Positions 1,885-15,065 of a stretch of 19,983 bases of DNA are shown here, piece by piece. Source of the DNA: a virus. Its lineage: Duplodnaviria; Heunggongvirae; Uroviricota; Caudoviricetes. The number at the start of each line of letters is the position of its first letter. Position 1 is the stretch's first letter. A program made the position numbers and the translations under genes. The notes below the pieces were generated by a model. The model was given only the letters and a program-made list of their open reading frames with translations, searched no databases and had not been told where the DNA came from. The DNA lies in the IMG/VR virus record IMGVR_UViG_2529292923_000021, positions 1-19,983 of that record. One strand, written 5' to 3'.

Positions 1885-3974
1885 CCTCCGGAAGTCAGCC
1901 AGGGGTTAACATCGTCAGTTACTGTTTTCTTCCGTTTTTGTTTTTTAACAGGCGTGGATACCGGTTCCGGTGAGGATGACGGTTCGGTACTGTCCGGGAC
2001 ACACTCCAGCCAGGTTTCCCGGCTCGCCCACTCCGGTGCATCCGGCCAGCGGATCTTTTCGTATCCATGCAGAATGACCAGAGCCTCGGCATACACCATC
2101 AGGTCAAAAGCTTCGTTGGCACCGCGACCCGGCTTACTCCATTTCCCGTCACGGCTCCGCTCTTCATACGTCAGTTCGTCGTAAAACCAGCTCCCCAGCC
2201 AGTCAGGGAAATGCACATAGCCGGGACCTGGCGAGTCACGCCATAACGCGTTATTTACCCGGTCTTTCAGTGCATCCGTCTGAAGAAGCCAGAGCGGCAC
2301 ATCACCTGCGGCCTGCGCCCGTCGGCCCGTTCGTCCGGTGTTATCAGGGAATGTACGGGTGATCAGTTTTGCGCGCCGGATGCTGTCGCCCTTAAACAGG
2401 TAAATACGTTTACCAAGGCCATCACGACGGCAACGACGCCAGAATTTATAGGCATTATCAGTGACCCCGTCTTCACCGCCGGAGTCCACCGCCATTGCCA
2501 TCAGTCGCATTTGTTGAGAAGGATCGGAGGCCAGCGGCCAGCTTTTATGAAAAACATCTGTCAGCAGGACATCCCAGTCTTCCGGATAGCTGGCCGGATC
2601 AATTCGCTGGCTCTCCCCGTCGCTGTCACCGCGCAATGACTGCGTGATGTTGTAACGATCAATAATCCAGCGTTCGCCACGGCTGCCATAGCCCGTTACC
2701 TGAACCACAAAACGGCGATGACGTCCCGCCTGCACATCCACTGTCGCCACAAGAAAATTAACGCCATCCGGCACACTGCGGGAATGAACTGGCTCTGCCC
2801 GCTGCTCAAGCAGTTCACTTTTTCGTTGCTCCATGCTGGCGCGGGGAAGATAAGGTAATCCCCAGTCGGTGTTGATAACCGCCCTGAGTGTTTCTTCACT
2901 TCCTGTCGCTTCATACTCCTGTTCTGCAGTCAGTAATTTGTAAACCAGTTGCGCCCAGGTCTGATACGCAGCAGCTGGCCCTTCCATCCAGAAACTGGCG
3001 ATACGGGAGCGGCGCGGTTCACCGGAAACGTTGCCGTTACAATCAATGACCTGACCTTCACGCAACCAGACTCCTGCACTATTGAGCTCACGCTTTTTCT
3101 CCGCAGTGATAATGCCGCTGCAGTGCGGGCAAAGTAGATACGCCGCCTCACTGGCTTTAAAGGGATCCGGTTCATTACGGTAGCCGGTCATGGCATCCAT
3201 GGCTGGCTGAAAATATTCACCGCAGTGCGGACATGGCCAGTACCAGCGGCGGCGGTCACCACGATTGTAAAGGGAAAGAATACCAGTCGTCGGTGGCGCT
3301 TCATGAGGCGACTTACGTCGCCATTTGCTGTCGCAGATGTCACGTCCCGGCGAGCTCTCCACCAGAGTCATCCCGGAGGACATAAATGTGGTGGTACGTT
3401 TTGAGGCCAGGGAGAAACCATCACCCTCGCTGTCGATATTCTCCGGAAAACGGTCGTAATCGGTTAAGGCGACAAACCGGTAATCCGACGACGACATAAT
3501 GTTGACCGAGGGCCAACCAATTTTAAGGAACGAGCCATCCCTGAACGTCTTATCATGGACATTATTGTCATTACGACGTGGACTCATTCTTTTCTTTACC
3601 GCCGCACTGCTTCTGAACGTTCTGTCGAGGCGCTTTTTTGAATGCTCGCGGGCCTTATCTTCGGTCATCTGCACAACGAGCATGTCCGAAGGATCGCAAA
3701 CGATGGTATAGACAATCCATCCATCGATCAGACCAATGGTCTTCCCTGTTCGCGCAGGACCAACAAAAATCACCGCATCGTATTCACGCGATGCCAGGCA
3801 GTTCATGGGCTCAATGATGTAGGGTGTCAGTTCAGGATCCCATGGCACCGAGTTACCAGCCCCCTTGGGAACACGCATGAATTTTTTAACAGCCTCCGAA
3901 ATCGGCATGCGACGTGGTGGAGAAAATCCTGCCGATATGTCCCTTCCCAAATTTCGGGCTGATGAAAAACCCAT
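1875..3974 (-). CDS. Terminase large subunit (lambda gpA family)
   Basis: 699-aa ORF with a P-loop-like GPARTGKT motif and a CPHCGE zinc-ribbon-like motif as in lambda gpA; follows the small terminase subunit. Confidence 0.85.
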   Translation of the reverse strand: MGFSSARNLGRDISAGFSPPRRMPISEAVKKFMRVPKGAGNSVPWDPELTPYIIEPMNCLASREYDAVIFVGPARTGKTIGLIDGWIVYTIVCDPSDMLVVQMTEDKAREHSKKRLDRTFRSSAAVKKRMSPRRNDNNVHDKTFRDGSFLKIGWPSVNIMSSSDYRFVALTDYDRFPENIDSEGDGFSLASKRTTTFMSSGMTLVESSPGRDICDSKWRRKSPHEAPPTTGILSLYNRGDRRRWYWPCPHCGEYFQPAMDAMTGYRNEPDPFKASEAAYLLCPHCSGIITAEKKRELNSAGVWLREGQVIDCNGNVSGEPRRSRIASFWMEGPAAAYQTWAQLVYKLLTAEQEYEATGSEETLRAVINTDWGLPYLPRASMEQRKSELLEQRAEPVHSRSVPDGVNFLVATVDVQAGRHRRFVVQVTGYGSRGERWIIDRYNITQSLRGDSDGESQRIDPASYPEDWDVLLTDVFHKSWPLASDPSQQMRLMAMAVDSGGEDGVTDNAYKFWRRCRRDGLGKRIYLFKGDSIRRAKLITRTFPDNTGRTGRRAQAAGDVPLWLLQTDALKDRVNNALWRDSPGPGYVHFPDWLGSWFYDELTYEERSRDGKWSKPGRGANEAFDLMVYAEALVILHGYEKIRWPDAPEWASRETWLECVPDSTEPSSSPEPVSTPVKKQKRKKTVTDDVNPWLTSGGWL

Positions 3975-3982
3975 TATTCCTC

Positions 3983-4510
3983 CTAGAGACTCTCTCCTTC
4001 CTCATCAGGAATTAATTCAGCAGCACAAGCCTCGTAGGATTTTTCCTGAAGAGTGTATCGCAGGTCATCAATGGCCTGCTGTACAACGCCAACGGCCTGA
4101 GGAGTCAGGGCGCAATCGCGTTCAAGAACATCCGGAATTGTCTCCAGAACCTGGACGACAGCCTTTCTCATGGACGAATAGACGATGACTACTTCATCAA
4201 CGGGGATGAGTTTTCGCTGCTCCTTTTCCAGCTTGATCCTTTCATTTTCAGACTGGTACCAGTCCTTTCTCTCTTTCGGCTCCATACGGGATGGATCATG
4301 AACAGAGTCTGCTGCCTCATGCTTCACACTAAACAGGGCTGGCCCGACATGCTGCAGGGCGTAAACGGGGTTCCCCCTGACAGTCGCAGCCACAGGAGTG
4401 TTGGCCGCGAGAAGCCGTTTTTTTACTGTGTCCCGGTGAAGCCCAAAGGCCTCAGCGATTTTAAAAACACTCCAGTAATAAGCATCACCGATCCCGCTCA
4501 CATTTGACAT
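3983..4510 (-). CDS. Terminase small subunit (Nu1-like); ORF open to 4540, preferred start at the third ATG (MSNVSG...)
   Basis: About 175 aa, immediately upstream of the large subunit. A GGAG lies 6 nt upstream of the ATG at 4510-4508; the first ATG at 4540 has no Shine-Dalgarno sequence. Confidence 0.65.
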   Translation of the reverse strand: MSNVSGIGDAYYWSVFKIAEAFGLHRDTVKKRLLAANTPVAATVRGNPVYALQHVGPALFSVKHEAADSVHDPSRMEPKERKDWYQSENERIKLEKEQRKLIPVDEVVIVYSSMRKAVVQVLETIPDVLERDCALTPQAVGVVQQAIDDLRYTLQEKSYEACAAELIPDEEGESL

Positions 4511-4540
4511 AAGCAACTCCATCTGGCAGGTGAAAATCAT

Positions 4541-4760
4541 GTTTATTTATATATTTCAATTAATTGTAAACTGGTCTAATGACAGGGAGAAAAAAATATT
4601 GTACAGGTAAAAAGAGAAATAACTTTTAATTATCAATAAATTACCAAACATGCTGCCGCCGCCATGGAAATGCAAAAACTAGCCTTTTTCCGCGACGCTC
4701 CCGCCCCGTGGCAGGCCACCCCACCGGAAGGACCCGCCAAAATGAGAGTGATTATCACCA
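4541..4760. other. Candidate cos / packaging-site region
   Basis: Non-coding stretch between the lysis cassette and the small terminase gene, where lambdoid cos sits. It is AT-rich with A-tracts (IHF-like context) and has a GC-rich core CATGCTGCCGCCGCCATGG that loosely resembles the lambda cohesive end GGGCGGCGACCT. Confidence 0.25.
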
Positions 4761-4973
4761 TTGCTGATGAATAAATTGATGAAAATCATTGAAACGCCTT
4801 TCAGCAAGATAACGGCGACGGTCGTTGTTGAACTCCGTAGCTCTGCTACTAAGGTTAAAAGCATGGCCATCTTTTGCCACCGGCAAATCTTCAATGGATT
4901 TCCCCTGCCGGTTTTTTATTCCTCACATTATCGCAGCCCCTCAGTGAAGGGCTGCTGTAATGCCTGCTCTTAC

Positions 4974-5336
4974 TCAGTAACGACCGCGCCTTCCGGTAAT
5001 TTCATACCGGCAAATACCGGACAGCCCGGGGATCGTTATCTGCAGCTGGTTAGCCAGGGAGTTAATCTCAGCGACCAACACTGGCTTCGTATAGCGCCAT
5101 GCCGCCAGCCCTTGTCCACAGAAGCTCGCCATATCTTTTTTCTGATCAAACTCATGACACTTCATATTGAGCTGCGCACTTAAGCTGTTGCGATGCTGAA
5201 GTTCTCCGGTGAAGTAGTCATCCAGGACTTTATAGGCTGCATATTTAAATCCGGGGTTTAGCCATGCTGCATAATCATAAGCAACAAACTTCCCGCCATA
5301 TGTTCCACCGTGTACACCGCGCTCAGTAAAAACCAC
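4974..5336 (-). CDS. Hypothetical protein with a KilA-N-like C-terminal motif, apparently lacking the N-terminal half of that domain
   Basis: 120-aa ORF starting 21 nt after the Rz stop. Residues GGTYGGKFVAYDYAAWLNPGFKYAAY resemble the conserved GGTWVHPxLAxxFAxWLSPxF block of KilA-N domains (recalled from memory). Confidence 0.4.
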   Translation of the reverse strand: MVFTERGVHGGTYGGKFVAYDYAAWLNPGFKYAAYKVLDDYFTGELQHRNSLSAQLNMKCHEFDQKKDMASFCGQGLAAWRYTKPVLVAEINSLANQLQITIPGLSGICRYEITGRRGRY

Positions 5337-5357
5337 AGATTCGTGTTTTTTCTCCAG

Positions 5358-5825
5358 CTACTTAATGCGCTGGGTGCGGATATATTCCTGCGCCCCTTCC
5401 AGTTGCTTCTGCATCGTCATCAACCGTTCTCTGAGGGTGAAATAATCCCGTTCAGCGGTGTCTGCCAGTCGGGGGCTGGTTGCATTATCCATGCTGGTGG
5501 GTCCGGTGGCTTCACGCACGGCTGCGGAGCAACTGGCATTGACCCGCAGGCGCTTACGACCAGCGGCAACATCAGCGCGCAGAGTTTCATTTTCAGTTTT
5601 CGCATCGGCTAACTCCTTCGTGTATTTTGCATCGATCGCAGCAACATCACGCTGACGCTGCTGCATGTCAGCGATGGTGGCGGTCGCCTGCTTCAGCTCA
5701 CTGACTTTTTTATCACGCTGTTCTTTGTAGGCGATGGCGTTATCACGGTAATGATTAACAGCCCATGACAGGCAGGCGATAATGCAGATAACCAGAGCGG
5801 AGATAATAACGGTTACCCTGCTCAT
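5358..5825 (-). CDS. Rz: Rz i-spanin (inner-membrane spanin)
   Basis: Translation [34 protein letters not shown]... is near-identical in pattern to lambda Rz. Start ATG overlaps the endolysin stop (ATGA). ORF track extends 4 codons further upstream to 5837. Confidence 0.9.
5420..5605 (-). CDS. Rz1: Rz1 o-spanin lipoprotein, embedded in Rz in another frame
   Basis: 61-aa proline-rich ORF ([30 protein letters not shown]) with a lipobox-like LVVSAC, matching lambda Rz1; fully nested within Rz in a different reading frame. Confidence 0.85.
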
Positions 5826-6319
5826 TGTTGCCCCCACAAACAGACTTCACGCTCAATCTCGCGGCGAGTCATCAGCCCTTTCCATTGCTTACCGCCAGCG
5901 TATGTCCAGCGCCGTAGCTGATCACATGCGCCTTTGATATCGCCCTGGTTTATTTTGCGAAGAAGCGTCGATGTTCTGAAATTGCCAGCGCCCACGTTGT
6001 AAACGAACGAGTAAAGAGCGCCGCGCGTTGTTTCCGGTATATCGACGTTGATGTACGGGTTAATTTGTCTGGCGACCGTGGCAAGGTCTTTATTCAGGAG
6101 GGCTTTGCATTCTGCTTCGGTATACGTTTTACCGAGCATAATGTCTTTTCCGGTGTGCCCGTAACATACAGTCCATACACCAACGATATCTTTATATGGT
6201 ATGTAGCTGACGCCTTCCAGACCATCGTTACCACTTGGGCCAGTGATTAACACAGATGCTATAGCAATAGCCCCGCCACCAATAGCCGCAGCAACGGCTT
6301 TTCGTAATGATGGAGGCAT
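5822..6319 (-). CDS. R: SAR endolysin (phage 21 R21-like lysozyme)
   Basis: 165 aa with a Gly/Ala-rich N-terminal signal-anchor-release segment ([18 protein letters not shown]) followed by a lysozyme domain; directly after the pinholin with an overlapping start and stop. Confidence 0.9.
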
Positions 6320-6534
6320 TATTCACCTCTCGCAGCCTTACGCTTGTCTTCTCTGATTTTGAAGTACAGATTTGTCAGGTAAGTCAGAAAGCCCAGAACC
6401 AGACTTCCCAGCACACCAATCGCAGCCCACTGTGACGGACTGACCTGATCAAGCCACTGTAAAAACCAGTAGCCAGCACTACCAGCGGATGTTCCGTAGG
6501 CAATGCCAGTAGAGATTTTGTCCATTGATTTCAT
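6319..6534 (-). CDS. S: Pinholin / antiholin (phage 21 S21-like), dual-start motif Met1-Lys-Ser-Met4
   Basis: 71-aa [34 protein letters not shown]... with two transmembrane segments and a charged C-terminus; matches the S21 71/68 dual-start arrangement, first gene of the lysis cassette. Confidence 0.9.
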
Positions 6535-6858
6535 AGCAACGCCTCCGCCAGTAACGGATTGCGTAGTTCTTATATTGGGAAGGGGAAAAAAGAAGGCCGC
6601 AGCGTAACTATCACTAATAAATTCAGGACAGCCAGTGGCTACGGCTCAGTTTGGGTTGTGGCGGCCGGAATCGAACCGGCTTCCATCGGTGCGCTGCCGA
6701 TTGCAGTACGCGCGGCGGTCAGCTATATGACTAGTATTTTCACTATCGCCTATCTGCTAGCTCGCCATTGAGCTTCACCACAACGATAAGAGCACTGCGC
6801 GGCACCTTTCACCAATTCCGCGAGGTCTGCGGGTTCAATGCTCTTACCTGTTGTGCAG

Positions 6859-6895
6859 AAAAAAAACCACACGGCAGCGAGTTTAAGCTGTGTGG
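6859..6895 (-). terminator. Intrinsic terminator on the minus strand (hairpin followed by T8)
   Basis: On the minus strand, GCCACACAGC...GCTGCCGTGTGG forms a stem with a perfect 6-bp CCACAC/GTGTGG core, followed immediately by eight T residues (plus-strand A-run 6859-6866). Confidence 0.45.
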
Positions 6896-6998
6896 CGAAG
6901 TTACCTCTCTTCACCAAGTATTCGGTAATAAAATAACTTGTGGTGTTCTCGTTTTTATGCCGATAAAATAAACGGTCCACTTTCAAATGGAGCGATTC

Positions 6999-7919
6999 AT
7001 GATTTTTCTCAGAACTGAAAACGGCATCGAGAAACTTGAAAACTGGGAGGAAATTATATCCAGACCAAACTTTGTCACCACTATAGACAAAGGAGTTCAA
7101 CAACTTGAGGAGATAATTGGTTACTACAAATTTAAAGAAGAAATCCACTGTGGTCTAACTGGTTGCAACCAACCACATCAAATGGGTTATATTGTAAAAA
7201 CATCTAGTGGCATTGAAACCAACATCGGAAATAAATGTGGTAAAAACGAATTTGGTGTGGAATTTGGTGAAAACGTTCTTAGTTTCAATAAATTTATGCA
7301 ACTCGAAACCAATCGGGAAATTATTAGCACCGCAAAAAGTAAATGTGAAGCGTGGCAAAAAAATATTGAAACGATACGAAATATCAAACCCACAATAGAT
7401 TATCTATCTTCTACCATCGAAAATAGTAAAAATTCCAATTACTCCGGAAGACTTGGTGCTACAGAAATTCGTTTTTTGACCAAGAACCAGACAGGCCTTG
7501 TAACCCTTTCTGAAGTGGAAACTGATAAGAATACCAAAACAATTCTGTTCGCAATGAATGAACACATGCGCGAGTCTGGAGAGGCAATAAGTGAATTCTA
7601 CATAGGAAAAGTATCATTTAGTCATGTTCTTTTACCAGAAAACAATCTTCGTGATTTTTTTGTTGCGCTCAAAGAAGATCTAAAAAAAATTCAGTGTATT
7701 GATCTACAAACAGCCCCAAGCCCAGAAATTTCTAATGTTGCCAAAATTGCCAGTTCAATCGAAGAACGAATCAAGCGATTAAAAAAACTGAAACATGAAG
7801 CCAGTAAATTCCTAACTAAAAAAAATCTGCGTCCCATCGCAAACAAAATAAAATACTCATCGACAGCGGATGAACTTGAATTCCATAATTTCGAACGCTT
7901 TTTAAAAGGGCTGAAATGA
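6999..7919 (+). CDS. Hypothetical protein, AT-rich accessory gene antisense to the late operon; function unknown
   Basis: 306-aa ORF (310 aa from the upstream ATG at 6987) with GGAG 6 nt upstream of the ATG at 6999. Base composition is visibly AT-rich compared with flanking late genes. Sits between Q and the holin on the opposite strand and ends at a hairpin terminator. Contains a small Cys/His cluster (HCGLTGCNQPH...CGK); no recognisable catalytic motif. Confidence 0.7.
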   Translation: MIFLRTENGIEKLENWEEIISRPNFVTTIDKGVQQLEEIIGYYKFKEEIHCGLTGCNQPHQMGYIVKTSSGIETNIGNKCGKNEFGVEFGENVLSFNKFMQLETNREIISTAKSKCEAWQKNIETIRNIKPTIDYLSSTIENSKNSNYSGRLGATEIRFLTKNQTGLVTLSEVETDKNTKTILFAMNEHMRESGEAISEFYIGKVSFSHVLLPENNLRDFFVALKEDLKKIQCIDLQTAPSPEISNVAKIASSIEERIKRLKKLKHEASKFLTKKNLRPIANKIKYSSTADELEFHNFERFLKGLK

Positions 7920-7939
7920 TAAAAGCCCCGAAAGGGGCT
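7917..7939 (-). terminator. tR'-like intrinsic terminator downstream of the late promoter; also closes the plus-strand gene
   Basis: AGCCCC-GAAA-GGGGCT hairpin at 7924-7939. On the minus strand it is followed by TTTTATCA, a good U-tract; on the plus strand the trailing T-tract is weaker. Confidence 0.55.
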
Positions 7940-7978
7940 TCTATCAAAATCATTTACGCATTATTCCGCATGCTTAAA

Positions 7979-8008
7979 AGAATACATGACAGATTCGGAC
8001 AAAATCAA
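7979..8008 (-). promoter_or_regulatory. Candidate late promoter pR' (minus strand) just downstream of Q
   Basis: On the minus strand, TTGATT (-35, 8008-8003) and TGtATTCT (extended -10, ending 7979) are separated by 18 nt. Position relative to Q and the downstream hairpin fits the lambdoid pR'-tR' layout. Hexamers picked by eye. Confidence 0.3.
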
Positions 8009-8033
8009 GTGCAATGTCGCAAAAACCCTAAGC

Positions 8034-8864
8034 TTAGTTCACATCATCACCAAAACTTGTCACATTCTGAAAAGCAATATCGGCCTTACGCTCTTCCTGG
8101 TGGCAAATGTCAACCAGAGAATCAAGAAACGGCTTCCAATTACGCGTCCATGTCCTGACATGTAGCTCGGGTATCCGCTTCAGTACAACTTTATATACTG
8201 TGGTAGACGGTACCGTGGAAAATCCATTTCCGCTGCAACGTTCGCAGATTTTAAACACTGGCACACCACGCTCGCTTGTGGCTTTGCGGTCCAGTACCTC
8301 TCCCTTTCCACCACAACGACACCTGGCACTTATCACTCCCTTCCCTTTACATACATCGCAAACGACTGGTACAACTTCCGTTACCTCTGTCCATTTCTCC
8401 CAGTCTGACGGTCGAACAGCACGGGAGCGACTGGCCCAATATGGTGCTTTACCCCATGGGTATGAAACCTTACGAATGACCTGCTTACGGGGTGTTAGTC
8501 CGGTACCACTGCAACTATGGCATGTTACGCTGGTGTCCGCCGATCGGGAATACTCAGCAAAAGCAAACTGCGCCAGTACCAGCATACACCAGCCAAATTC
8601 ACCACCAGCTGCTTTACGCACATTCTTCGGTGCAATTTCCATCGCGTGACGCGCCAGCGCTTGGACTGCCATCTGCTCATCAGTCTTGCTGATACCGGCC
8701 TTCCCGAAGAAGGCCGCCAAGCCAAACCGTTCACGATTGCTGGTGGTACCAATAGCCGCCATAACATCGGTGCCTGTAAGACGTTCCGGAGAGGTTCCTT
8801 TCACATCGTCGCCGATATACATTCCCTGAGGACTGAAGTATTTTAGCGATGCCTCAAGCTTCAT
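8034..8864 (-). CDS. Q: Late-gene antiterminator Q (long Q82/Qin-type)
   Basis: 276 aa with several CxxC zinc-finger-like clusters (CHSCSGTG, CDVCKGKG, CRCGGKG, CERCSGNG); located immediately upstream of the late promoter/terminator and lysis genes. Confidence 0.65.
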   Translation of the reverse strand: MKLEASLKYFSPQGMYIGDDVKGTSPERLTGTDVMAAIGTTSNRERFGLAAFFGKAGISKTDEQMAVQALARHAMEIAPKNVRKAAGGEFGWCMLVLAQFAFAEYSRSADTSVTCHSCSGTGLTPRKQVIRKVSYPWGKAPYWASRSRAVRPSDWEKWTEVTEVVPVVCDVCKGKGVISARCRCGGKGEVLDRKATSERGVPVFKICERCSGNGFSTVPSTTVYKVVLKRIPELHVRTWTRNWKPFLDSLVDICHQEERKADIAFQNVTSFGDDVN

Positions 8865-9718: not shown

Positions 9719-9843
9719 TACGCAACCGCCTTTTTCTTATGGAAAACCAGCTCTCGAACCTGATCACCGTTCATGAGCATATTGTTGAAATCATCGTGAT
9801 CCGGCCAGTACACGCTCACGCGCTGCAGGTCATTCTTTGCCAT
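9718..9843 (-). CDS. Possible small ORF (41 aa) overlapping the helicase stop; alternatively the tail of a frameshifted longer protein
   Basis: ATG at 9843-9841 overlaps the helicase stop; the tail MAKNDLQRVSVYWPDHDDFNNMLMNGDQVRELVFHKKKAVA looks protein-like. The same frame is open back to 10038. Confidence 0.3.
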   Translation of the reverse strand: MAKNDLQRVSVYWPDHDDFNNMLMNGDQVRELVFHKKKAVA

Positions 9844-11224
9844 CAGATTGGCATGAGCACATTCGCAAGCCGCAGCCAGCCCGGTGGCGCTGATAAAATT
9901 TGATCTGACTCCACCAGGACTGTTTCTCTGCCTTCGTCGACTGATGCTGATTTTTACCCAGCTTATTAAGTTTGCGGCTAGTGTCAGTATCAACGTCTTC
10001 ACCTCGCAGCGGCTTGTGTCCACATTTCGGGCAAACATAGACGCCAGCTGGCTTCATGTAGTGGCATTGAGGGCATTCATGTGGCAGTTTTTCGGCCCGT
10101 TCCTCAACTGCGCGGCGCGCGCTTTCCTCCATGCCATCAGACTTACCGGGAAGATCGTCGTACTCGATTGAATCCGGATAACCCAAACGGTGCACGGTGC
10201 CGCTGTGATCGAAGATAAGGCAGGACGCTTTACCCGGTGCGGTGCGCAGCCCACGCCCGAGTGCCTGCAACCAGCGAATTTCGCTTTTTGTTGGCCTGGC
10301 GTAGATGATGCAACGAACGTCACTATCGAATCCGGCTACCAGAACGCCCACACTAACGATGATTTTCGTTGCACCGGTTTCAAAGCGGTGAATGATGGTC
10401 TGGCGCTCATCTACCGGAGTGTCGGCGGTCATTACCTCAGCGTTAACACCCGCCAAGTTAAACTGGATTGTCAGATAATTGGCGTGAGCTACGTTGACGC
10501 AGAAAGCGATGGTAGGTAGATCCCGACCATTCTCCAGCCAGTTCTGTACGATGTCGCCCACCAGCGTAGAGCCGCACATGATTTCAGCCAGCTGTGTTTC
10601 GTTGTAATCGCGGCCGTACTCAAGCGAAGATGTGGTTTTAACACCTTTCAGATCCGGCTTAGTTGGCGCGTAAAATTCGTATTTACTCAGATCGCCACGC
10701 TGGATTAACTCGCCGATGGTGGTCGGCTTAATCAGTCGGTCATAGTATTTGCCCAGGAACGGAGAAAACGGAGTACCCGACAGGCCAATCACCTTTACGC
10801 CTTTGCCGCGCAGACGTTCGATATCCTTCAGGATGCGTTTTTTACGCAGGTGCGCTTCGTCGATAATCAGCAGATCGATATTTTCAGGAAAAACACGACG
10901 AATAAGCGTGTCAGCGCTGGCAATCTGAATTTTCCGGTCCGGATCGTAGTTCGGGTGATCCGCCCAGATATAACCGATTTCATCTCCAGGTAAACCATAC
11001 TGCACGAACCGATTAGCCGTCTGACCAATCAGGATGGTGTACGGAACACAGAACAGAACACGCATACCACGGCTGACAAAACCAGCAACTATGAAGGCTG
11101 CCAGACCCGTTTTACCGCTACCTGTTGGCGAGTAAACCATGAAGGTGTCGTTTGCCTTCCAGTCACGGCGCAACATGTTTAGCGCTCGCTCCTGTGCAAA
11201 ATTCGGCGTGATTGTCAGCTGCAT
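9830..11224 (-). CDS. Superfamily-2 DEAD/DEAH-box helicase with C-terminal zinc ribbon
   Basis: Walker A SPTGSGKT, motif II IIDEAH, motif III SGTP, motif VI QALGRGLR, and a C-terminal CPQCHY...CPKCGH zinc ribbon. Confidence 0.85.
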   Translation of the reverse strand: MQLTITPNFAQERALNMLRRDWKANDTFMVYSPTGSGKTGLAAFIVAGFVSRGMRVLFCVPYTILIGQTANRFVQYGLPGDEIGYIWADHPNYDPDRKIQIASADTLIRRVFPENIDLLIIDEAHLRKKRILKDIERLRGKGVKVIGLSGTPFSPFLGKYYDRLIKPTTIGELIQRGDLSKYEFYAPTKPDLKGVKTTSSLEYGRDYNETQLAEIMCGSTLVGDIVQNWLENGRDLPTIAFCVNVAHANYLTIQFNLAGVNAEVMTADTPVDERQTIIHRFETGATKIIVSVGVLVAGFDSDVRCIIYARPTKSEIRWLQALGRGLRTAPGKASCLIFDHSGTVHRLGYPDSIEYDDLPGKSDGMEESARRAVEERAEKLPHECPQCHYMKPAGVYVCPKCGHKPLRGEDVDTDTSRKLNKLGKNQHQSTKAEKQSWWSQIKFYQRHRAGCGLRMCSCQSDGKE

Positions 11225-12259: not shown

Positions 12260-12532
12260 TCATTCGTTTTTCATAACTGCCGCATTTGTGGCTGTGTGAC
12301 TTCTACGTAACAAATCAGGGATTGCATCTTCAGGATGGGGATAAAGATCTGGTCTTAACCCATGAGGAGTAACTTTCCATTCCACAACTTCACATACACG
12401 CAAGACGAAACGAGCAGGAATTGTTCTTTTTGAAAACCATTGGTTCACAGCTTGCGGCGTAACGCCTAGATTTCGCGCTATGGCATTTTGTGCAATTAGC
12501 TCACGAAGTGCGTCGTAATCATTTCCTTTCAT
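12260..12532 (-). CDS. cro: Cro-like HTH regulator (YdaS/Cro family)
   Basis: 90 aa with an HTH (NLGVTPQAVNQWFSKRTIP) and a C-terminal LRPD motif typical of YdaS/Cro-family proteins; divergent from the cI-like gene; GGTGGG upstream of the ATG. Confidence 0.7.
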   Translation of the reverse strand: MKGNDYDALRELIAQNAIARNLGVTPQAVNQWFSKRTIPARFVLRVCEVVEWKVTPHGLRPDLYPHPEDAIPDLLRRSHTATNAAVMKNE

Positions 12533-12666
12533 CGCAACCCACCAATCTAAACTTTATAAATTCAAGATTACATCAAGTTTAAATTAACATGCAAGTCCAC
12601 AAAAGATCGAATACACTAAAATCAAGTAAAAATTTATCGAAACCAAGTAACCAGCAAGGATTAACA
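12533..12666. promoter_or_regulatory. cI/cro divergent promoter-operator region (OR-like)
   Basis: 134-bp AT-rich intergenic region between divergent repressor genes; the motif ATCAAGT recurs at 12572-12578 and 12621-12627. Confidence 0.5.
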
Positions 12667-13356
12667 ATGAAAAACTTAAAGAGCACTGAAAATCGAATTA
12701 CAAAGCTGCTACAGGAGAAAGGCTGGAGCCAAGCAGAGCTGGCCCGAAAATTAGGTGTCAGCGCACAGTCCGTACAGTACTGGACAACAGGAAAAACATT
12801 TCCAAGGGGAAACCGGCTTGCCCAGTTATCCGAAATAAGTGGTTATCCGCAATCGTGGTTTTTAGGAGAAATCACGTCACGGCAGTTCTCTTCAAAGGAA
12901 AAACATCAAGCAAGAACTGACAGTGTGGTCTTTAACGTGCTCGATGTTGAGTTTAGTTGCGGCGATGGAACACATGTCCGTGGGGACTTTATCGATGTAG
13001 TTCGCTCAATCGAGCTTGATCCTGAATATGCCCGTCGCCTTGTTGGCAATAGAGCATTTCAAAACATAGAGATTGGTAACGCAAGAGGAGATAGTATGGC
13101 TCCAACAATAGCCCCAGGAGATCTTCTTTTTCTCGATAAAACAGTGAATTACTTTGATGGTGATGGCATTTATGCTTTTTGCTTTGATGGTGAATGCTAC
13201 GTCAAAAGATTACAAAAGATAGGAAGTAAAATCATGGTGTTATCTGATAACCCAAATTACCAATCCTGGAGCATTGAAAAAGATGCTCTTGAGCTGCTTT
13301 ATATCCAATCGAAGGTAATCTCATCTGTTCCATTCAATATAAATAGATTTGGTTAA
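12667..13356 (+). CDS. cI: cI-like repressor (HTH-XRE plus S24 LexA-like peptidase domain); alternative upstream start at 12589
   Basis: N-terminal HTH (GWSQAELARKLGVSAQSVQYW), C-terminal S24 autoprotease motifs (GDSMAPT with the catalytic Ser; VKRL with the Lys). AAGGA lies 8 nt upstream of the ATG at 12667. Confidence 0.9.
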   Translation: MKNLKSTENRITKLLQEKGWSQAELARKLGVSAQSVQYWTTGKTFPRGNRLAQLSEISGYPQSWFLGEITSRQFSSKEKHQARTDSVVFNVLDVEFSCGDGTHVRGDFIDVVRSIELDPEYARRLVGNRAFQNIEIGNARGDSMAPTIAPGDLLFLDKTVNYFDGDGIYAFCFDGECYVKRLQKIGSKIMVLSDNPNYQSWSIEKDALELLYIQSKVISSVPFNINRFG

Positions 13357-13418
13357 TTATTGATTATTAAAGAAAAATTTACAAATCAAGTAAAAGAGAC
13401 GCAGAAATCAATTTTTTC

Positions 13419-13448
13419 TTGACAACTCCATCAATCAAGATCTAACAT
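13419..13448 (+). promoter_or_regulatory. pL-like early promoter
   Basis: TTGACA (13419-13424), 18-nt spacer, TAACAT (13443-13448); flanked by ATCAAGT-type motifs at 13385-13391 and, inverted, 13465-13471. Confidence 0.45.
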
Positions 13449-13450
13449 CA

Positions 13451-13497
13451 CACCATCAATTTTGACTTGATTTATTGTTAATTTTAAATTGATGGTG
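13451..13497 (+). repeat. Perfect 12-bp inverted repeat in the 5' leader of the first early gene
   Basis: CACCATCAATTT (13451-13462) and AAATTGATGGTG (13486-13497) are exact reverse complements; the 3' arm contains the GGTGA Shine-Dalgarno of the ORF starting at 13503. Confidence 0.8.
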
Positions 13498-13502
13498 ATT
13501 CA

Positions 13503-13931
13503 ATGAAAGATCTGACAACCGCTGAGATATCGAACTTAAACCACTTCGAAAAAGAATCCTTTGCATTAAATATTGCAAATCTGGTAGGTGCTGCTCGTAC
13601 TTTCCATTTAATTGATGGTGATCGCTCTAAAGAATTGGGGTTTGAAGTCATGGAGTTTGTTCATGAATACGCCCTGTCTGCTACTTATCCATTACATAAT
13701 CACATAATCAACAAACAACCAAATAAAATCCGCACCCAACGCGAAGCCTGCGGCTTAACAACCGCCGAACTCGCCAGGCTGCTCGATCTCGATGAAGAAA
13801 TTATCATCCAGTGGGAAAGCGGAGAGTACGAACCAACCATCAGCATGCTTATCCCTCTGGCTAATGTTCTTGGCTGTGATCCAATGTTGTTATTGACTGA
13901 TGCTTATAAACAAAATCAGGAGGAAGCATAA
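13503..13931 (+). CDS. HTH-XRE domain protein (142 aa) with an N-terminal extension of unknown function
   Basis: C-terminal HTH (CGLTTAELARLLDLDEEIIIQWESGEYEPTISMLIPLANVLGCDPMLL); first gene after the pL-like promoter. Confidence 0.75.
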   Translation: MKDLTTAEISNLNHFEKESFALNIANLVGAARTFHLIDGDRSKELGFEVMEFVHEYALSATYPLHNHIINKQPNKIRTQREACGLTTAELARLLDLDEEIIIQWESGEYEPTISMLIPLANVLGCDPMLLLTDAYKQNQEEA

Positions 13932-13932
13932 G

Positions 13933-14124
13933 ATGAAAATGTTCAAAGGCCTTACCAACGAACCGGAGACAGCTTTTCATCACATTGCCGTACTGCTTGA
14001 AGCGGGGTTAATCATTTCGGCTTCCGGTGATGAAGAATGTGATGAACTTTCGGATGATATCTTTTTACTGGCACAACAATACGCCAAAAGCGCATGCGAT
14101 GCATTTAAGGAGCAAAGAACATGA
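13933..14124 (+). CDS. Small acidic protein (63 aa)
   Basis: AGGAAG 7 nt upstream of the ATG at 13933 (ORF track gives a non-ATG start at 13900); acidic composition. Confidence 0.55.
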   Translation: MKMFKGLTNEPETAFHHIAVLLEAGLIISASGDEECDELSDDIFLLAQQYAKSACDAFKEQRT

Positions 14125-14312
14125 TAACTCCATTAAATATTCTTGAGGAAGTGGCGGCACAAATAAAAGAGAATACATCAATGCTTGAATTTATATTTAA
14201 GAATTCGCCCGACCAAGGAGAGACAGACGATTATTTATGCTGTCTCATTCGCTCCATGAATAAGACCTGTGAAATGGCTTACGAGTATATAGAAACACTA
14301 CGCAACGAATAA
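14121..14312 (+). CDS. Small acidic protein (63 aa)
   Basis: ATGA start/stop overlap with the preceding ORF; acidic composition. Confidence 0.55.
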   Translation: MITPLNILEEVAAQIKENTSMLEFIFKNSPDQGETDDYLCCLIRSMNKTCEMAYEYIETLRNE

Positions 14313-14394
14313 AGAACACTCAGTAAAAAATCACACATAAAAACATGACGGCCTCTGGTCGTGGATTTCCACAACCAGAAAATAATGGTGATGC

Positions 14395-14493
14395 ATGAAA
14401 AATAGAAACGCTTATAAAACCGCATTATTAATGGCTAATGCAGGATACTGGTCAGTTGCAATACTGTTTCTCAGAAAAGCATACGGGAAATAA
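14395..14493 (+). CDS. Putative small hydrophobic peptide (32 aa)
   Basis: GGTGA 4 nt upstream of the ATG; MKNRNAYKTALLMANAGYWSVAILFLRKAYGK has one hydrophobic segment. Below the ORF-track length cut-off. Confidence 0.3.
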   Translation: MKNRNAYKTALLMANAGYWSVAILFLRKAYGK

Positions 14494-14496
14494 CAA

Positions 14497-14856
14497 ATGG
14501 CATGTACAACCATTTATAAAGATCGTCGCCGCATGGTAACAGCGGCACTCCGGCGGATGCAACGTAAAACAGGTAGTAATCTGCTCGTCGTTGACCTCCC
14601 GGACGGAGAAATAACAACGATAGAAATAACTGAACAGTTCATGAACCAGTTGTTATTACGATTTGAGGGTCTTACCCGTGTTGAATATGGACGGACGGAA
14701 GGAGAAGCAACAATCCGTACCGCATACCAGAATGCCATCGGTATTAATCAACACACGGAATATCTCACTGAATCAGGGAAACTGATAGTGGACGGCCTTT
14801 TAAAAGAGGTTGTTGACTACGTAAAAGAGAAATATATCAGTGGAGGAATTAACTGA
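14497..14856 (+). CDS. Hypothetical protein (119 aa)
   Basis: ORF in the early operon, tightly packed with its neighbours; no motif recognised. Confidence 0.55.
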   Translation: MACTTIYKDRRRMVTAALRRMQRKTGSNLLVVDLPDGEITTIEITEQFMNQLLLRFEGLTRVEYGRTEGEATIRTAYQNAIGINQHTEYLTESGKLIVDGLLKEVVDYVKEKYISGGIN

Positions 14857-15065
14857 TGTCTGATTTATCCCCTCTTATACACGAAAAAGTACAGATCATT
14901 ATGACGATTGAAAATGGTCAGGTAATAAATACCCGTAAAGTTCACAATAACGAGATGATTGCCAGCATGGATACCTTCTTATGGATAGCAAAGAAAGCGG
15001 GATATCAGGTAATCGCTCCTGATCTGGAGGAAATCGGTGACATTAACAGCAATACGAATTCCTGA
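14856..15065 (+). CDS. Hypothetical protein (69 aa)
   Basis: Start overlaps the previous stop (ATGA-type coupling). Confidence 0.5.
   Translation: MSDLSPLIHEKVQIIMTIENGQVINTRKVHNNEMIASMDTFLWIAKKAGYQVIAPDLEEIGDINSNTNS

What the first reader, a model, noticed from the sequence alone, without database searches (positions are those of the whole stretch)
6659..8033. AT-rich antisense accessory gene in the Q-to-holin slot (the stx-equivalent moron position)
A 306-aa ORF (6999-7919) of markedly lower GC than its neighbours lies on the strand opposite the late operon, exactly between Q with its pR'/tR'-like elements and the lysis-gene leader. This is the classic lambdoid slot for horizontally acquired cargo such as stx or bor. 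It has its own Shine-Dalgarno sequence and a hairpin terminator at its 3' end, and I recognise no domain beyond a small Cys/His cluster. Q-antiterminated late transcription would run antisense across it, so it would be expressed in the lysogen and silenced in lytic growth, which is the expression logic of prophage-encoded defence or exclusion genes. This is my best candidate for an undescribed system.
Basis: partly seen in the sequence, partly recalled or inferred. Interest (0 to 1): 0.8.

Follow-up and report, generated by a model that had tools for sequence, protein, structure and literature searches.

The report
Uncharacterised antisense prophage gene beside Q
A real, well-conserved prophage gene of unknown function sits backwards just after the phage's late-gene switch, a layout repeated in many phages that should keep it on in the dormant prophage and off during lytic growth, which makes it a candidate phage-exclusion gene with no function yet shown.

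Summary
A 306-aa ORF (6999-7919, + strand; GC 0.35 against about 0.50 in its neighbours) lies between Q (8034-8864, -) and the holin (6319-6534, -). It is a genuine gene: dN/dS is about 0.1, the AlphaFold model has pLDDT 92.7, and it matches PHROG 7003 ("unknown function") over its full length. An exhaustive profile search finds at least 1000 clusters at 50% identity. The family has no Pfam, NCBIfam, PADLOC or PDB relative, no fold match, and no paper that I could find. Its conserved core is an N-terminal beta domain with an invariant C51/C56/H60/C80 zinc site; the helical remainder diverges fast. In 59 of 76 viral loci, and in all 12 close contexts examined, it lies convergent with and immediately downstream of an antiterminator Q of either of two unrelated families. 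The "3' hairpin" is a bidirectional terminator whose stronger side serves a conserved pR'-like promoter, so Q-modified transcription must cross the gene antisense. Distant members instead follow cI, or face pL across a conserved small partner gene. All three layouts predict expression in the lysogen and shut-off in lytic growth. A defence or exclusion role is plausible but untested. The gene is not a stand-in for stx: in Stx2f phages it sits between Q and stxAB.

The parts
6999..7919 (+). Protein-coding gene of 306 aa. It has an N-terminal beta domain (about residues 1-86) carrying a CCHC zinc site (C51, C56, H60, C80), followed by a helical region (87-306) whose C-terminal third is basic.
   Evidence: ORF list and sequence; phrog_7003 full-length match at E 1.7e-110; dN/dS 0.10; AF2 pLDDT 92.7; invariant residues; no TM segment and net +8 charge in residues 216-306.
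6990..6993 (+). Shine-Dalgarno sequence GGAG, 5 nt before ATG 6999.
   Evidence: Sequence; conserved as GGAG/AGGA/AAGG in homologous loci.
6958..6969 (+). Conserved box TGCCGATAAAAT, with the putative -10 hexamer TAAAAT at 6964-6969, 29 nt before the ATG. This is the inferred own promoter. No good -35 is present.
   Evidence: The box is invariant as TG(G/C)CG(A/T)TAAAAT in E. coli, Salmonella, Phytobacter and Pectobacterium, although the rest of the upstream region does not align. The consensus promoter scan found nothing here at its threshold.
7917..7946 (.). Bidirectional intrinsic terminator hairpin (core GCCCC-GAAA-GGGGC at 7925-7938). On the - strand it is followed by UUUUAUCAUUU and acts as tR' of the late promoter. 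On the + strand it ends the 306-aa gene's transcript.
   Evidence: Fold energies and z-scores on both strands; compensatory stem changes between allele groups; a hairpin is present in all 46 distinct Q-slot intergenic sequences; the T-run is stronger on the - strand in 39 of 42.
7979..8008 (-). Inferred late promoter pR': -35 TTGATT (8008-8003), 18-nt spacer, -10 TATTCT (7984-7979). The start site would be near 7972, giving a terminated leader RNA of about 50-60 nt that contains ATGCGGAATAATGC.
   Evidence: Conserved in six loci, including the divergent allele group and a locus that has lost the ORF (alignment A4). The segment is retained in strain 2012EL-2448, where the ORF is deleted. The call rests on sequence conservation only.
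8034..8864 (-). Antiterminator Q (276 aa, PF03589 type), convergent with the 306-aa gene. A mosaic breakpoint lies inside Q at about 8221, so the Q C-terminal third, pR'/tR' and the 306-aa gene are inherited as one block.
   Evidence: Pfam and PHROG matches. Megablast classes that cover only 8221-8864 carry the 25%-identical allele downstream.
6859..6895 (-). Second terminator-like element on the late-operon strand (CCACAC...GUGUGG followed by U8). It lies at the junction between the cargo module and the lambda-type late leader.
   Evidence: Sequence. Homology with phi467 starts at 6860, and homology with the lambda/HK75 leader, where tR' is annotated, ends at 6870. Relatives have different stems, each followed by a T-run. 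The predicted fold of the window copy is ambiguous.
6591..6870 (-). Conserved lambdoid late-operon leader between tR' and the holin. It is not part of the cargo and includes a tRNA-like remnant at 6653-6711.
   Evidence: 92-97% identical to many lambdoid phages and to 672 E. coli genomes. Rfam gives a partial tmRNA/tRNA-like hit at E 1.1e-5, below the gathering score. ARAGORN finds no tRNA.
6319..6534 (-). S21-type holin, the first lysis gene reached by late transcription after it has crossed the 306-aa gene antisense.
   Evidence: PF04971 at E 1.4e-35.

Best explanation
The 306-aa ORF is a functional, horizontally mobile single-gene cargo module of temperate phages. It encodes a soluble cytoplasmic protein of a large uncharacterised family. 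The conserved N-terminal CCHC-zinc beta domain is followed by a rapidly diverging helical region.

Shown:
- It is a real gene under purifying selection.
- It sits tail-to-tail with Q.
- It shares a bidirectional terminator with a conserved pR'-like promoter.
- The same family recurs in this position next to two unrelated Q families, and in the cI/pL region of other phages.

Inferred:
- In the lysogen it is transcribed from its own promoter (-10 at 6964-6969) and terminates at the shared hairpin, while pR' makes only a short terminated RNA.
- After induction, Q-modified RNA polymerase reads through the hairpin and crosses the gene antisense. That silences it by polymerase collision or antisense RNA before transcription reaches the lysis genes.

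Most likely role (speculative): a lysogen-expressed phage-exclusion or abortive-infection protein. The variable helical part would recognise an invader component, and the conserved zinc domain would engage a conserved target such as nucleic acid or the transcription machinery. The antisense shut-off would protect the prophage's own lytic cycle from it.
For: Real gene: dN/dS is 0.095-0.10, with the N-domain at 0.05. AF2 gives pLDDT 92.7 and pTM 0.79. The PHROG 7003 match is full length. An exhaustive search finds at least 1000 representatives, 171 of them at E<=1e-30 and nearly all 280-320 aa.

Cargo: GC is 0.354 against about 0.50. The gene is rare, with this allele in 16 and a 25%-identical allele in 22 of 5426 E. 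coli genomes. There is a presence/absence polymorphism in which Q and the intergenic region are retained. A conserved -10 box travels with the gene.

Architecture: pR' and the hairpin are conserved, with compensatory stem changes. All 46 distinct intergenic sequences have the hairpin, and the T-run is stronger on the late strand in 39 of 42. Of 76 viral loci, 59 have Q convergent downstream, including alleles at 24-29% identity, with PF03589-type or DUF1133-type Q. All 12 close contexts show the same arrangement.

Three layouts, one expression logic: the gene is co-oriented directly after a CI repressor in L019. It is nested antisense just downstream of OL/pL in a Klebsiella phage, L086 and L072.

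Defence-like signatures: alleles only 25% identical occupy the same slot in the same backbone. The N-domain is conserved (36-53%) while the rest varies (12-32%).

Precedent for antisense switching of a prophage defence gene: Tha/Ith (PMC11087260).

Against: The gene's own promoter lacks a recognisable -35 and fell below the scan threshold. The pR' assignment rests on conservation alone.

Linkage to the Q C-terminus could be physical only. The slot statistics come from loci found with Enterobacterales-biased peptide patterns and include near-duplicates. The contexts of most of the 1000 or more distant clusters were not sampled.

The copy in phi467 and three viral contigs is frameshifted, so the gene is dispensable for those phages.
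Confidence: 0.4

Rival explanations
1. The module regulates the prophage's own late transcription. Either the protein (for example an anti-Q or RNA-polymerase-binding factor) or simply convergent transcription from its promoter dampens leaky read-through from pR' (or pL) and so stabilises lysogeny or times lysis. In Stx phages this would also gate toxin expression.
Against: The family pairs with two unrelated Q families, and also follows cI with no Q nearby. That is hard to reconcile with a Q-specific partner. A prophage keeps Q, pR' and tR' after losing the gene, and frameshifted copies exist in Stx2f phages. The structural similarity is far below significance. Co-variation with the Q C-terminus is expected from linkage alone.
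Confidence: 0.22
2. It is a lysogenic-conversion factor that acts on host physiology or virulence, like other cargo in the Q-to-holin interval, and has nothing to do with phage-phage conflict.
For: The slot classically carries host-directed cargo such as stx and nanS-p-type esterases. The gene is AT-rich foreign DNA with its own expression signals.
Against: The protein is soluble, with no signal peptide or TM segment, and has no toxin, enzyme or secretion-related domain. The family spans hosts of very different lifestyles: Enterobacterales, Pseudomonas and Burkholderia phages, and environmental metagenomes. Host-directed cargo in this slot is normally co-oriented with the late operon, but this gene is consistently antisense.
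Confidence: 0.12
3. It is a lytic-cycle gene, for example an anti-defence or replication accessory factor, that merely happens to be transcribed from its own promoter on the other strand.
For: No evidence found here favours this reading. The only point in its favour is that expression timing has not been measured, so lytic-cycle expression cannot be excluded.
Against: The gene shares a strand with cI and int and opposes every lytic operon in the window. In L019 it directly follows cI with no promoter of its own. Its position facing pR' or pL makes expression during lytic growth the least favourable case.
Confidence: 0.05
4. It is a spurious or decaying ORF in AT-rich junk DNA.
For: The window prophage carries a deletion in its replication genes, and some copies of the gene are frameshifted.
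Against: dN/dS is about 0.1. The structure prediction is confident. More than 1000 clusters give full-length matches of uniform length. Zinc ligands are invariant.
Confidence: 0.01

Closest known systems
BstA (prophage BTP1 abortive-infection protein; PMC8585504)
   Same: It is a single soluble protein of about 307 aa encoded by temperate phages of Gram-negative bacteria. It has two parts, an N-terminal putative nucleic-acid-binding domain and a second domain. It is carried as a lysogen-expressed accessory gene with its own terminator, next to the immunity region. A distant homologue of the window protein occupies exactly that cI-downstream position.
   Different: There is no sequence relationship: hhalign probability 0.3%, BLASTP E 0.73. 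There is no KilA-N-like domain, and the N-domain here is a CCHC-zinc beta domain. The window copy sits at Q/pR', not after cI. No aba-type DNA immunity element was identified. The phenotype is unknown.
Tha/Ith 'noncontiguous operon' of S. aureus prophages (PMC11087260)
   Same: A prophage accessory gene and a lytic transcription unit overlap on opposite strands, so lysogenic and lytic expression states exclude each other. A small overlapping antisense gene accompanies the large one. The distant branch of this family has a conserved small tail-to-tail partner.
   Different: The proteins are unrelated, with no HEPN domain. The host and phage group differ. In the window there is no partner gene, and the antisense input would come from Q-antiterminated pR' transcription. 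Nothing has been tested experimentally.
Lambda rexAB and the cI-pL 'rex slot'
   Same: Members of the family sit in the interval between cI and the early-left operon, where lambda carries rexAB. That rexAB is a lysogen-expressed exclusion system is from my own knowledge.
   Different: There is no hit to RexA/RexB or to any PADLOC model. It is a single soluble protein, not a sensor plus membrane-channel pair. In most such loci the gene is convergent with cI and is not in the cI operon.
stx and other cargo of the Q-to-holin interval in lambdoid phages
   Same: It occupies the same interval, downstream of pR'-tR' and upstream of the holin. It is atypical in composition and mobile.
   Different: stx, the tRNAs and the esterase genes are co-oriented with the late operon and are switched on by Q. 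This gene is antisense and would be switched off by Q. It coexists with stxAB and lies Q-proximal to it.
HK022 Nun (recalled from my own knowledge, not tested here)
   Same: Nun is a prophage-expressed protein encoded next to an antitermination-controlled promoter. It excludes superinfecting lambda by acting on the antitermination-competent transcription complex. That is a functional model compatible with this family's fixed position beside pR'/Q or pL.
   Different: Nun is a small arginine-rich RNA-binding protein. The resemblance is positional only.
PHROG 7003
   Same: The window protein is a full-length member (E 1.7e-110, profile positions 1-309 of 309).
   Different: The PHROG has no functional annotation, so membership gives a name but no mechanism.

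Membership tests
PHROG 7003 (unknown function) | Full-length match to the family HMM. | tested here: met
   E 1.7e-110, 370 bits, protein residues 5-310 aligned to profile positions 1-309 of 309.
BstA abortive-infection family | Sequence or profile homology to BstA(BTP1). | tested here: not met
   hhalign of the 50-member profile against BstA gives probability 0.3%; BLASTP gives E 0.73. No PADLOC hit.
BstA abortive-infection family | KilA-N-like N-terminal domain. | tested here: not met
   No Pfam family matched at E<=0.01 in the window protein, and only one stray DUF6959 hit (E 0.0028) appeared in one of 50 members. The N-domain model is a zinc-bearing beta barrel-like fold.
BstA abortive-infection family | Encoded directly downstream of the prophage repressor and expressed in the lysogen. 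| tested here: not met
   The window copy lies next to Q, about 4.7 kb from cI. One distant homologue (L019) does follow cI. Expression cannot be tested with these tools.
BstA abortive-infection family | Abortive-infection phenotype and a cognate aba DNA immunity element. | not testable with these tools
   This needs plaque and survival assays.
Any catalogued anti-phage defence system (PADLOC-DB 2.0.0) | Match to a defence-protein HMM. | tested here: not met
   No families for the window protein at E<=10. Among 50 members there were only three single stray hits at E 0.0015-0.004.
Lambdoid 'moron' (self-contained cargo unit) | Composition that differs from flanking phage genes. | tested here: met
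   GC 0.354 and GC3 0.303, against 0.48-0.54 and 0.47-0.58 in neighbours.
Lambdoid 'moron' (self-contained cargo unit) | Present or absent between conserved flanking genes in related phages. | tested here: met
   Strain 2012EL-2448 keeps Q, the intergenic region and about 70 nt of the gene's 3' end, but lacks the gene. The flanks differ among carriers: stxAB, tRNAs or holin.
Lambdoid 'moron' (self-contained cargo unit) | Own terminator. | tested here: met
   There is a hairpin at 7917-7946, but it is shared with pR' and is stronger on the opposite strand.
Lambdoid 'moron' (self-contained cargo unit) | Own promoter. | tested here: inconclusive
   A conserved TAAAAT box lies 29 nt before the ATG across genera. 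There is no -35, and nothing was reported at the scan threshold.
Noncontiguous operon (antisense gene nested in a transcription unit) | A gene on the opposite strand lying between the promoter and the downstream genes of an operon. | tested here: met
   The inferred pR' (8008-7979) lies upstream, and the holin, lysozyme and Rz genes lie downstream on the - strand, with the gene between them on the + strand. The promoter call is by conservation only.
Noncontiguous operon (antisense gene nested in a transcription unit) | Reciprocal expression of the two strands. | not testable with these tools
   This needs strand-specific RNA-seq with and without induction.
Zinc-binding (treble-clef or zinc-knuckle-like) domain | Four invariant Cys/His ligands in a compact domain. 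| tested here: met
   C51, C56, H60 and C80 are invariant in 50 sequences down to 22% identity. They lie at a hairpin turn, at a strand start and next to a helix start in the model. The metal-site geometry could not be measured because no coordinates were available.

The most novel reading that the evidence does not exclude
The family is a new class of lysogen-expressed exclusion proteins that act on antitermination-dependent phage transcription. The conserved zinc domain would dock on RNA polymerase or nascent nucleic acid. The hypervariable helical part would recognise an invader's Q- or N-type antitermination apparatus, or another early product. The gene's invariable position facing the prophage's own pR' or pL would be the built-in off-switch. 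In the cI/pL branch the small tail-to-tail partner, the first pL gene, would serve as a protein antidote.
Probability: 0.12. Interest if true: 0.85.

Novelty: new variant of a known kind. Interest (0 to 1): 0.6.

Why it matters
If the inferred logic is right, this is a widespread and so far unstudied prophage accessory family. It has at least 1000 clusters at 50% identity and is found in phages of E. coli (including O157 and Stx2f STEC), Salmonella, Enterobacter, Klebsiella, Yersinia, Serratia and Pseudomonas. Its regulation would be wired directly into the lysis-lysogeny transcription switch by gene orientation.

It would add a new protein fold to the set of single-gene prophage defences. It would also extend the 'antisense nested gene' principle of self-immunity from staphylococcal phages to lambdoid phages.

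In Stx phages, toxin transcription from pR' has to cross this gene. The gene or its convergent transcription could therefore modulate Shiga-toxin output, which can be tested directly.

Tried and rejected
- Pfam, NCBIfam and PADLOC scans of the protein found nothing, and Pfam and PADLOC scans of 50 family members also found nothing.
- PDB sequence searches with the protein, the full-length profiles A1 and A3, and the N-domain profile gave nothing below E 0.05.
- The AFDB Foldseek library was unavailable.
- BstA was tested directly and rejected.
- A conserved partner gene in Q-slot loci was sought and rejected: the small neighbours in Providencia and Yersinia are unrelated to each other, and the small-partner profile has no hit in the window.
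- The small partner is not related to Q, CI or holins.
- Operator and promoter mapping in the Pseudomonas Hollowayvirus locus was inconclusive.
- Literature searches by accession (WP_000576789, WP_000576620), by phi467 and by keywords found no description of the gene. The DefensePredictor supplements hold none of the three accessions of the window allele that were searched; WP_000576620 was not looked for there.
- Rfam found no known RNA in the Q-gene interval, and ARAGORN found no tRNA.
- A genome-contig scan added only three close loci, and the diverse profile A3 was too divergent for pattern scanning.
Full report
**1. The observation.** The window is the immunity-to-packaging half of a lambdoid prophage. 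On the - strand lie the portal, large terminase, a DUF1441 small terminase, Rz/Rz1, lysozyme, an S21-type holin (6319-6534), Q (8034-8864), a phrog_6204 gene, a helicase and a cro-like gene. On the + strand lie cI (12589-13356), an excisionase and an integrase. Between holin and Q, on the + strand, is an ORF with ATG at 6999 and stop at 7917-7919, giving 306 aa. GGAG at 6990-6993, the RefSeq annotation of an identical locus and the N-termini of all homologues favour 6999 over the in-frame ATG at 6987. The ORF has GC 0.354 and GC3 0.303, while flanking genes have GC 0.48-0.54. The hairpin at its 3' end is real. The exception is the left edge: 6591-6870 is ordinary lambda-type late leader shared with hundreds of phages and E. 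coli genomes, and the cargo begins near 6860, where homology with phage phi467 starts.

**2. It is a real gene of a large, unnamed family.**
- Against homologues of 85% and 78% identity, dN/dS is 0.095-0.10. It is 0.05-0.07 in the N-terminal 90 codons and 0.17 in the last 90.
- The protein is a full-length member of PHROG 7003, annotated 'unknown function' (E 1.7e-110).
- The word-indexed search found 103 clusters, all in Enterobacterales, all 305-307 aa and all called 'hypothetical'. The exact sequence is on record in 197 E. coli contigs.
- An exhaustive profile search of 1.84 billion representatives found at least 1000 proteins at E<=1e-3, 575 at <=1e-10 and 171 at <=1e-30. Nearly all are 280-320 aa and match end to end.
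- tblastn finds members in Klebsiella, Pseudomonas (Hollowayvirus) and Burkholderia phages.
- No Pfam, NCBIfam or PADLOC model matches the window protein. No Pfam or PADLOC model consistently matches the 50 diverse members either, apart from isolated stray hits.

**3. The protein.**
- AlphaFold2 with a 25-sequence alignment gives pLDDT 92.7 and pTM 0.79. The model has a beta-rich N-domain (residues 1-77), a 40-residue helix (87-128), further helices with two strands (167-173, 197-204), and a C-terminal helical bundle (217-303).
- Across 50 members down to 22% identity, the invariant positions are Y43, C51, C56, H60, G63, G77, C80 and G81. That is a CCHC zinc site. The two cysteines lie in the turn after a long strand, the histidine at the start of the next strand, and the last cysteine next to the start of a short helix.
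- Information content peaks at residues 46-90. The protein has no hydrophobic segment (maximum Kyte-Doolittle 19-residue mean 0.73), and its last third is basic (net +8).
- Between alleles, the N-domain keeps 36-53% identity and the rest only 12-32%.
- No solved structure is related by sequence.
- The AlphaFold-database library was unavailable.

**4. The signals around it.**
- The - strand downstream of Q was aligned from six loci. These include the divergent allele group and a strain that has lost the ORF. The alignment shows a conserved sigma-70 promoter (TTGAyT, 18 nt, TG-TATCAT), which in the window is TTGATT at 8008-8003 and TATTCT at 7984-7979.
- A conserved initial transcribed sequence (ATGCGGAATAATGC) follows the promoter, and then the hairpin with a T-run. 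The hairpin stem differs between allele groups by compensatory changes, GCCCC/GGGGC against CCCGC/GCGGG.
- All 46 distinct Q-to-gene intergenic sequences collected carry such a hairpin. The T-run after the last G:C pair is longer on the late-operon strand in 39 of 42, with means of 6.9 and 5.0 T in 9 nt.
- The hairpin is therefore a bidirectional terminator whose stronger face is tR' of an inferred pR'. In the lysogen pR' would make an RNA of about 50-60 nt.
- With Q, polymerase must read through and cross the whole 306-aa gene antisense. It must then pass a second terminator-like element (6895-6859, at the junction with the lambda-type leader) before reaching the holin.
- On the gene's own strand, the box TG(G/C)CG(A/T)TAAAAT is invariant 29 nt before the ATG in E. 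coli, Salmonella, Phytobacter and Pectobacterium, where nothing else upstream aligns. More distant loci have TAAAAT, TATAAT or TAGAAT at -35 to -48.
- There is no convincing -35, and the consensus scan reported no promoter there. The gene's own promoter is therefore probable, not established.

**5. Position is conserved far beyond what linkage explains.**
- In all close contexts examined, the gene is convergent with, and 77-145 bp from, an antiterminator gene, and lies upstream of a holin. These contexts are:
  - four E. coli backbones;
  - Salmonella, Phytobacter and Pectobacterium;
  - Serratia, Yersinia, Providencia and Morganella;
  - the 25%-identical allele of phage 611R1 and O157-type strains.
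- The Q belongs either to PF03589 or to the unrelated DUF1133/lambda-Q-like group, and the holins belong to at least four families.
- Among 80 viral contigs with relatives of 24-100% identity, 76 have enough downstream sequence to judge. Of these, 59 have Q convergent directly downstream: 44 PF03589-type, 12 DUF1133-type and 3 with a frameshifted family gene. They include alleles at 24-29% identity.
- Two caveats apply. The loci were retrieved with Enterobacterales-derived peptide patterns, and many are near-duplicates.
- Where other cargo is present (stxAB in phi467 and four other contigs, stxA next to a 25% allele, tRNAs, esterase genes), the family gene is always the Q-proximal element. It is therefore a companion of stx, not its equivalent.
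- Megablast classes show a mosaic breakpoint inside Q near 8221. The Q C-terminal third, pR'/tR' and the gene travel together, and phages that share the Q N-terminal two-thirds and the replication module carry the 25%-identical allele instead.
- Strain 2012EL-2448 retains Q, the promoter-terminator segment and about 70 nt of the gene's 3' end but lacks the gene. The gene is therefore dispensable for the Q-pR' unit.
- This allele occurs in 16 of 5426 complete E. coli genomes and the alternative allele in 22.

**6. Other layouts point the same way.**
- In L019, a homologue about 27% identical follows a CI-type repressor (HTH plus Peptidase_S24) on the same strand after a 20-nt gap, with no -10 box of its own. 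This is the position lambda gives to rexAB and BTP1 gives to bstA.
- In Klebsiella phage ST13-OXA48phi12.2, operator-like repeats occur twice between cI and the gene and once in the cI-cro gap. A leftward promoter (5456 to 5428) lies among the first two. pL transcription must therefore run antisense through the homologue before reaching the early-left genes.
- L086 repeats this with two operator clusters, and L072 has an 11/12-match leftward promoter in the same place. The Pseudomonas loci were uninformative.
- Three independent arrangements therefore predict expression in the lysogen and shut-off on induction: facing pR', facing pL, and in the cI operon.
- An experimentally dissected precedent for this design is the Tha/Ith noncontiguous operon of staphylococcal prophages (PMC11087260).

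**7. A partner gene in the distant branch.**
- In 14 non-Q loci, a 74-93-aa ORF lies convergent with the family gene. In 13 of them it overlaps the gene's 3' end by about 20-45 nt; in the Klebsiella phage (L020) the two are 9 nt apart.
- These small proteins are homologous to one another (28-68% identity, motif N-P/S-C-D/E-G-Y...W..LP). They have no Pfam match and are unrelated to Q, CI or holins.
- They are absent from the window and from every Q-slot locus.
- In the Klebsiella phage this ORF is unannotated and is the first ORF downstream of the pL-like promoter.
- A role as early-expressed antidote, analogous to Ith, is an attractive hypothesis but is untested.

**8. Comparison with known systems.**
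- BstA is the closest described analogue in size, two-part build, host range and prophage position. It is not a relative: hhalign probability 0.3% and no KilA-N-like domain.
- No PADLOC model matches, including RexAB.
- Searches of the literature by accession, by phage name and by keywords found no description of the gene. The supplements of a recent machine-learning defence screen do not list the three accessions of the window allele that I searched for.
- The Stx-phage comparative paper that includes phi467 notes only that its stx region is arranged differently.

**9. Interpretation.** The following are established:
- a functional, mobile, single-gene cargo of a large uncharacterised family;
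- a CCHC-zinc N-domain with a fast-evolving remainder;
- a strikingly fixed position facing an antitermination-controlled lytic promoter;
- a shared bidirectional terminator.

The following are inferred: expression in the lysogen from its own promoter, and silencing by Q-dependent antisense transcription.

The role is speculative. I judge it most likely to be a phage-exclusion or abortive-infection protein, for four reasons: allele turnover in a fixed slot, a conserved module joined to a variable one, a cytoplasmic protein, and occupancy of classic defence slots. The main rival is a regulator of the prophage's own late transcription, which the position and the co-variation with the Q C-terminus also fit. 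The family's pairing with unrelated Q families, its presence after cI and its dispensability argue against a Q-specific partner. I put 0.4 on the defence reading, 0.22 on the regulatory one, and the remainder on host-directed conversion, a lytic function or something unforeseen.

**10. Verdict.** The finding is a new variant of a known kind, namely lysogen-expressed prophage cargo with antisense self-control. Its protein family has no known fold relatives or function. Interest is moderate to high (0.6). The case is well defined and testable, and it bears on Stx phages, but so far it rests entirely on comparative sequence evidence.

Noticed in passing
L009 2069-2293(-), L020 4924-5124(-), L072 4379-4639(-), L085 4911-5150(-), L086 4911-5135(-), L099-L101 4890-5171(-), L107 4862-5086(-); also L010, L018, L073, L074, L084: A conserved small ORF (74-93 aa, motif N-P/S-C-D/E-G-Y...W..LP) lies tail-to-tail with distant family members. 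It overlaps the family gene's 3' end by about 20-45 nt in 13 loci and lies 9 nt from it in L020. It has no Pfam match, is unrelated to Q, CI or holin, and is absent from the window and from Q-slot loci. It could be an antidote-type partner.
   Followed up: partly
L020 (Klebsiella phage ST13-OXA48phi12.2, MK422452) 4924-5388: GenBank annotates a 144-aa + strand ORF (4954-5388) here. The conserved small partner is encoded on the - strand at 5124 to 4924 and is unannotated, so the deposited call is probably wrong.
   Followed up: partly
window 9869-9892: Relative to the near-identical prophage of E. coli N61, the window lacks about 1.1 kb (L003 7308-8406). The deletion removes the toprim primase gene and the helicase C-terminus, leaving a 464-aa helicase ORF (9830-11224). 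The prophage is probably replication-defective.
   Followed up: partly
window 6653-6711 (-): A tRNA-like 3' fragment (T-arm plus acceptor) sits in the late leader. Rfam gives a partial tmRNA-clan hit at E 1.1e-5, below the gathering score. ARAGORN finds no tRNA. The homologous stretch is annotated tRNA-Ser in one Salmonella phage record. It is probably a remnant of the tRNA genes common in this interval.
   Followed up: partly
L001 (phi467) 4140-5014; L058-L060: The copy in Stx2f phage phi467 and three viral contigs is split by a frameshift and annotated as two CDS. Other Stx-linked contigs (L031, L032) carry it intact. The gene is therefore being lost in some Stx2f phages, unless these are sequencing errors.
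   Followed up: partly
window about 8221, inside Q (8034-8864): There is a mosaic breakpoint within the Q gene. The 5' two-thirds of Q and the replication module are shared at 98% identity with phages whose Q C-terminal third, pR' region and downstream family allele are all different.
   Followed up: partly
window 12260-14860: The immunity region is AT-rich. It has a YdaS/Cro-like gene (12260-12532, -), cI with HTH plus Peptidase_S24 (12589-13356, +), a second HTH protein (13503-13931, +) and an unassigned 119-aa ORF (14497-14856, +). GC falls to 0.31 at 13200-13600, between cI and the second HTH gene. That second regulator was not examined.
   Followed up: no
L008 (Pectobacterium) 3933-4784(-): In this locus a DNA/RNA non-specific endonuclease gene (PF01223) sits between the family gene and the holin, co-oriented with the late operon. 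It is another piece of cargo in the same interval.
   Followed up: no
L069 5138-5746(-): A 202-aa convergent neighbour occupies the Q position, with a holin upstream, but matches neither Q family nor any Pfam model. It may be a further antiterminator family.
   Followed up: no
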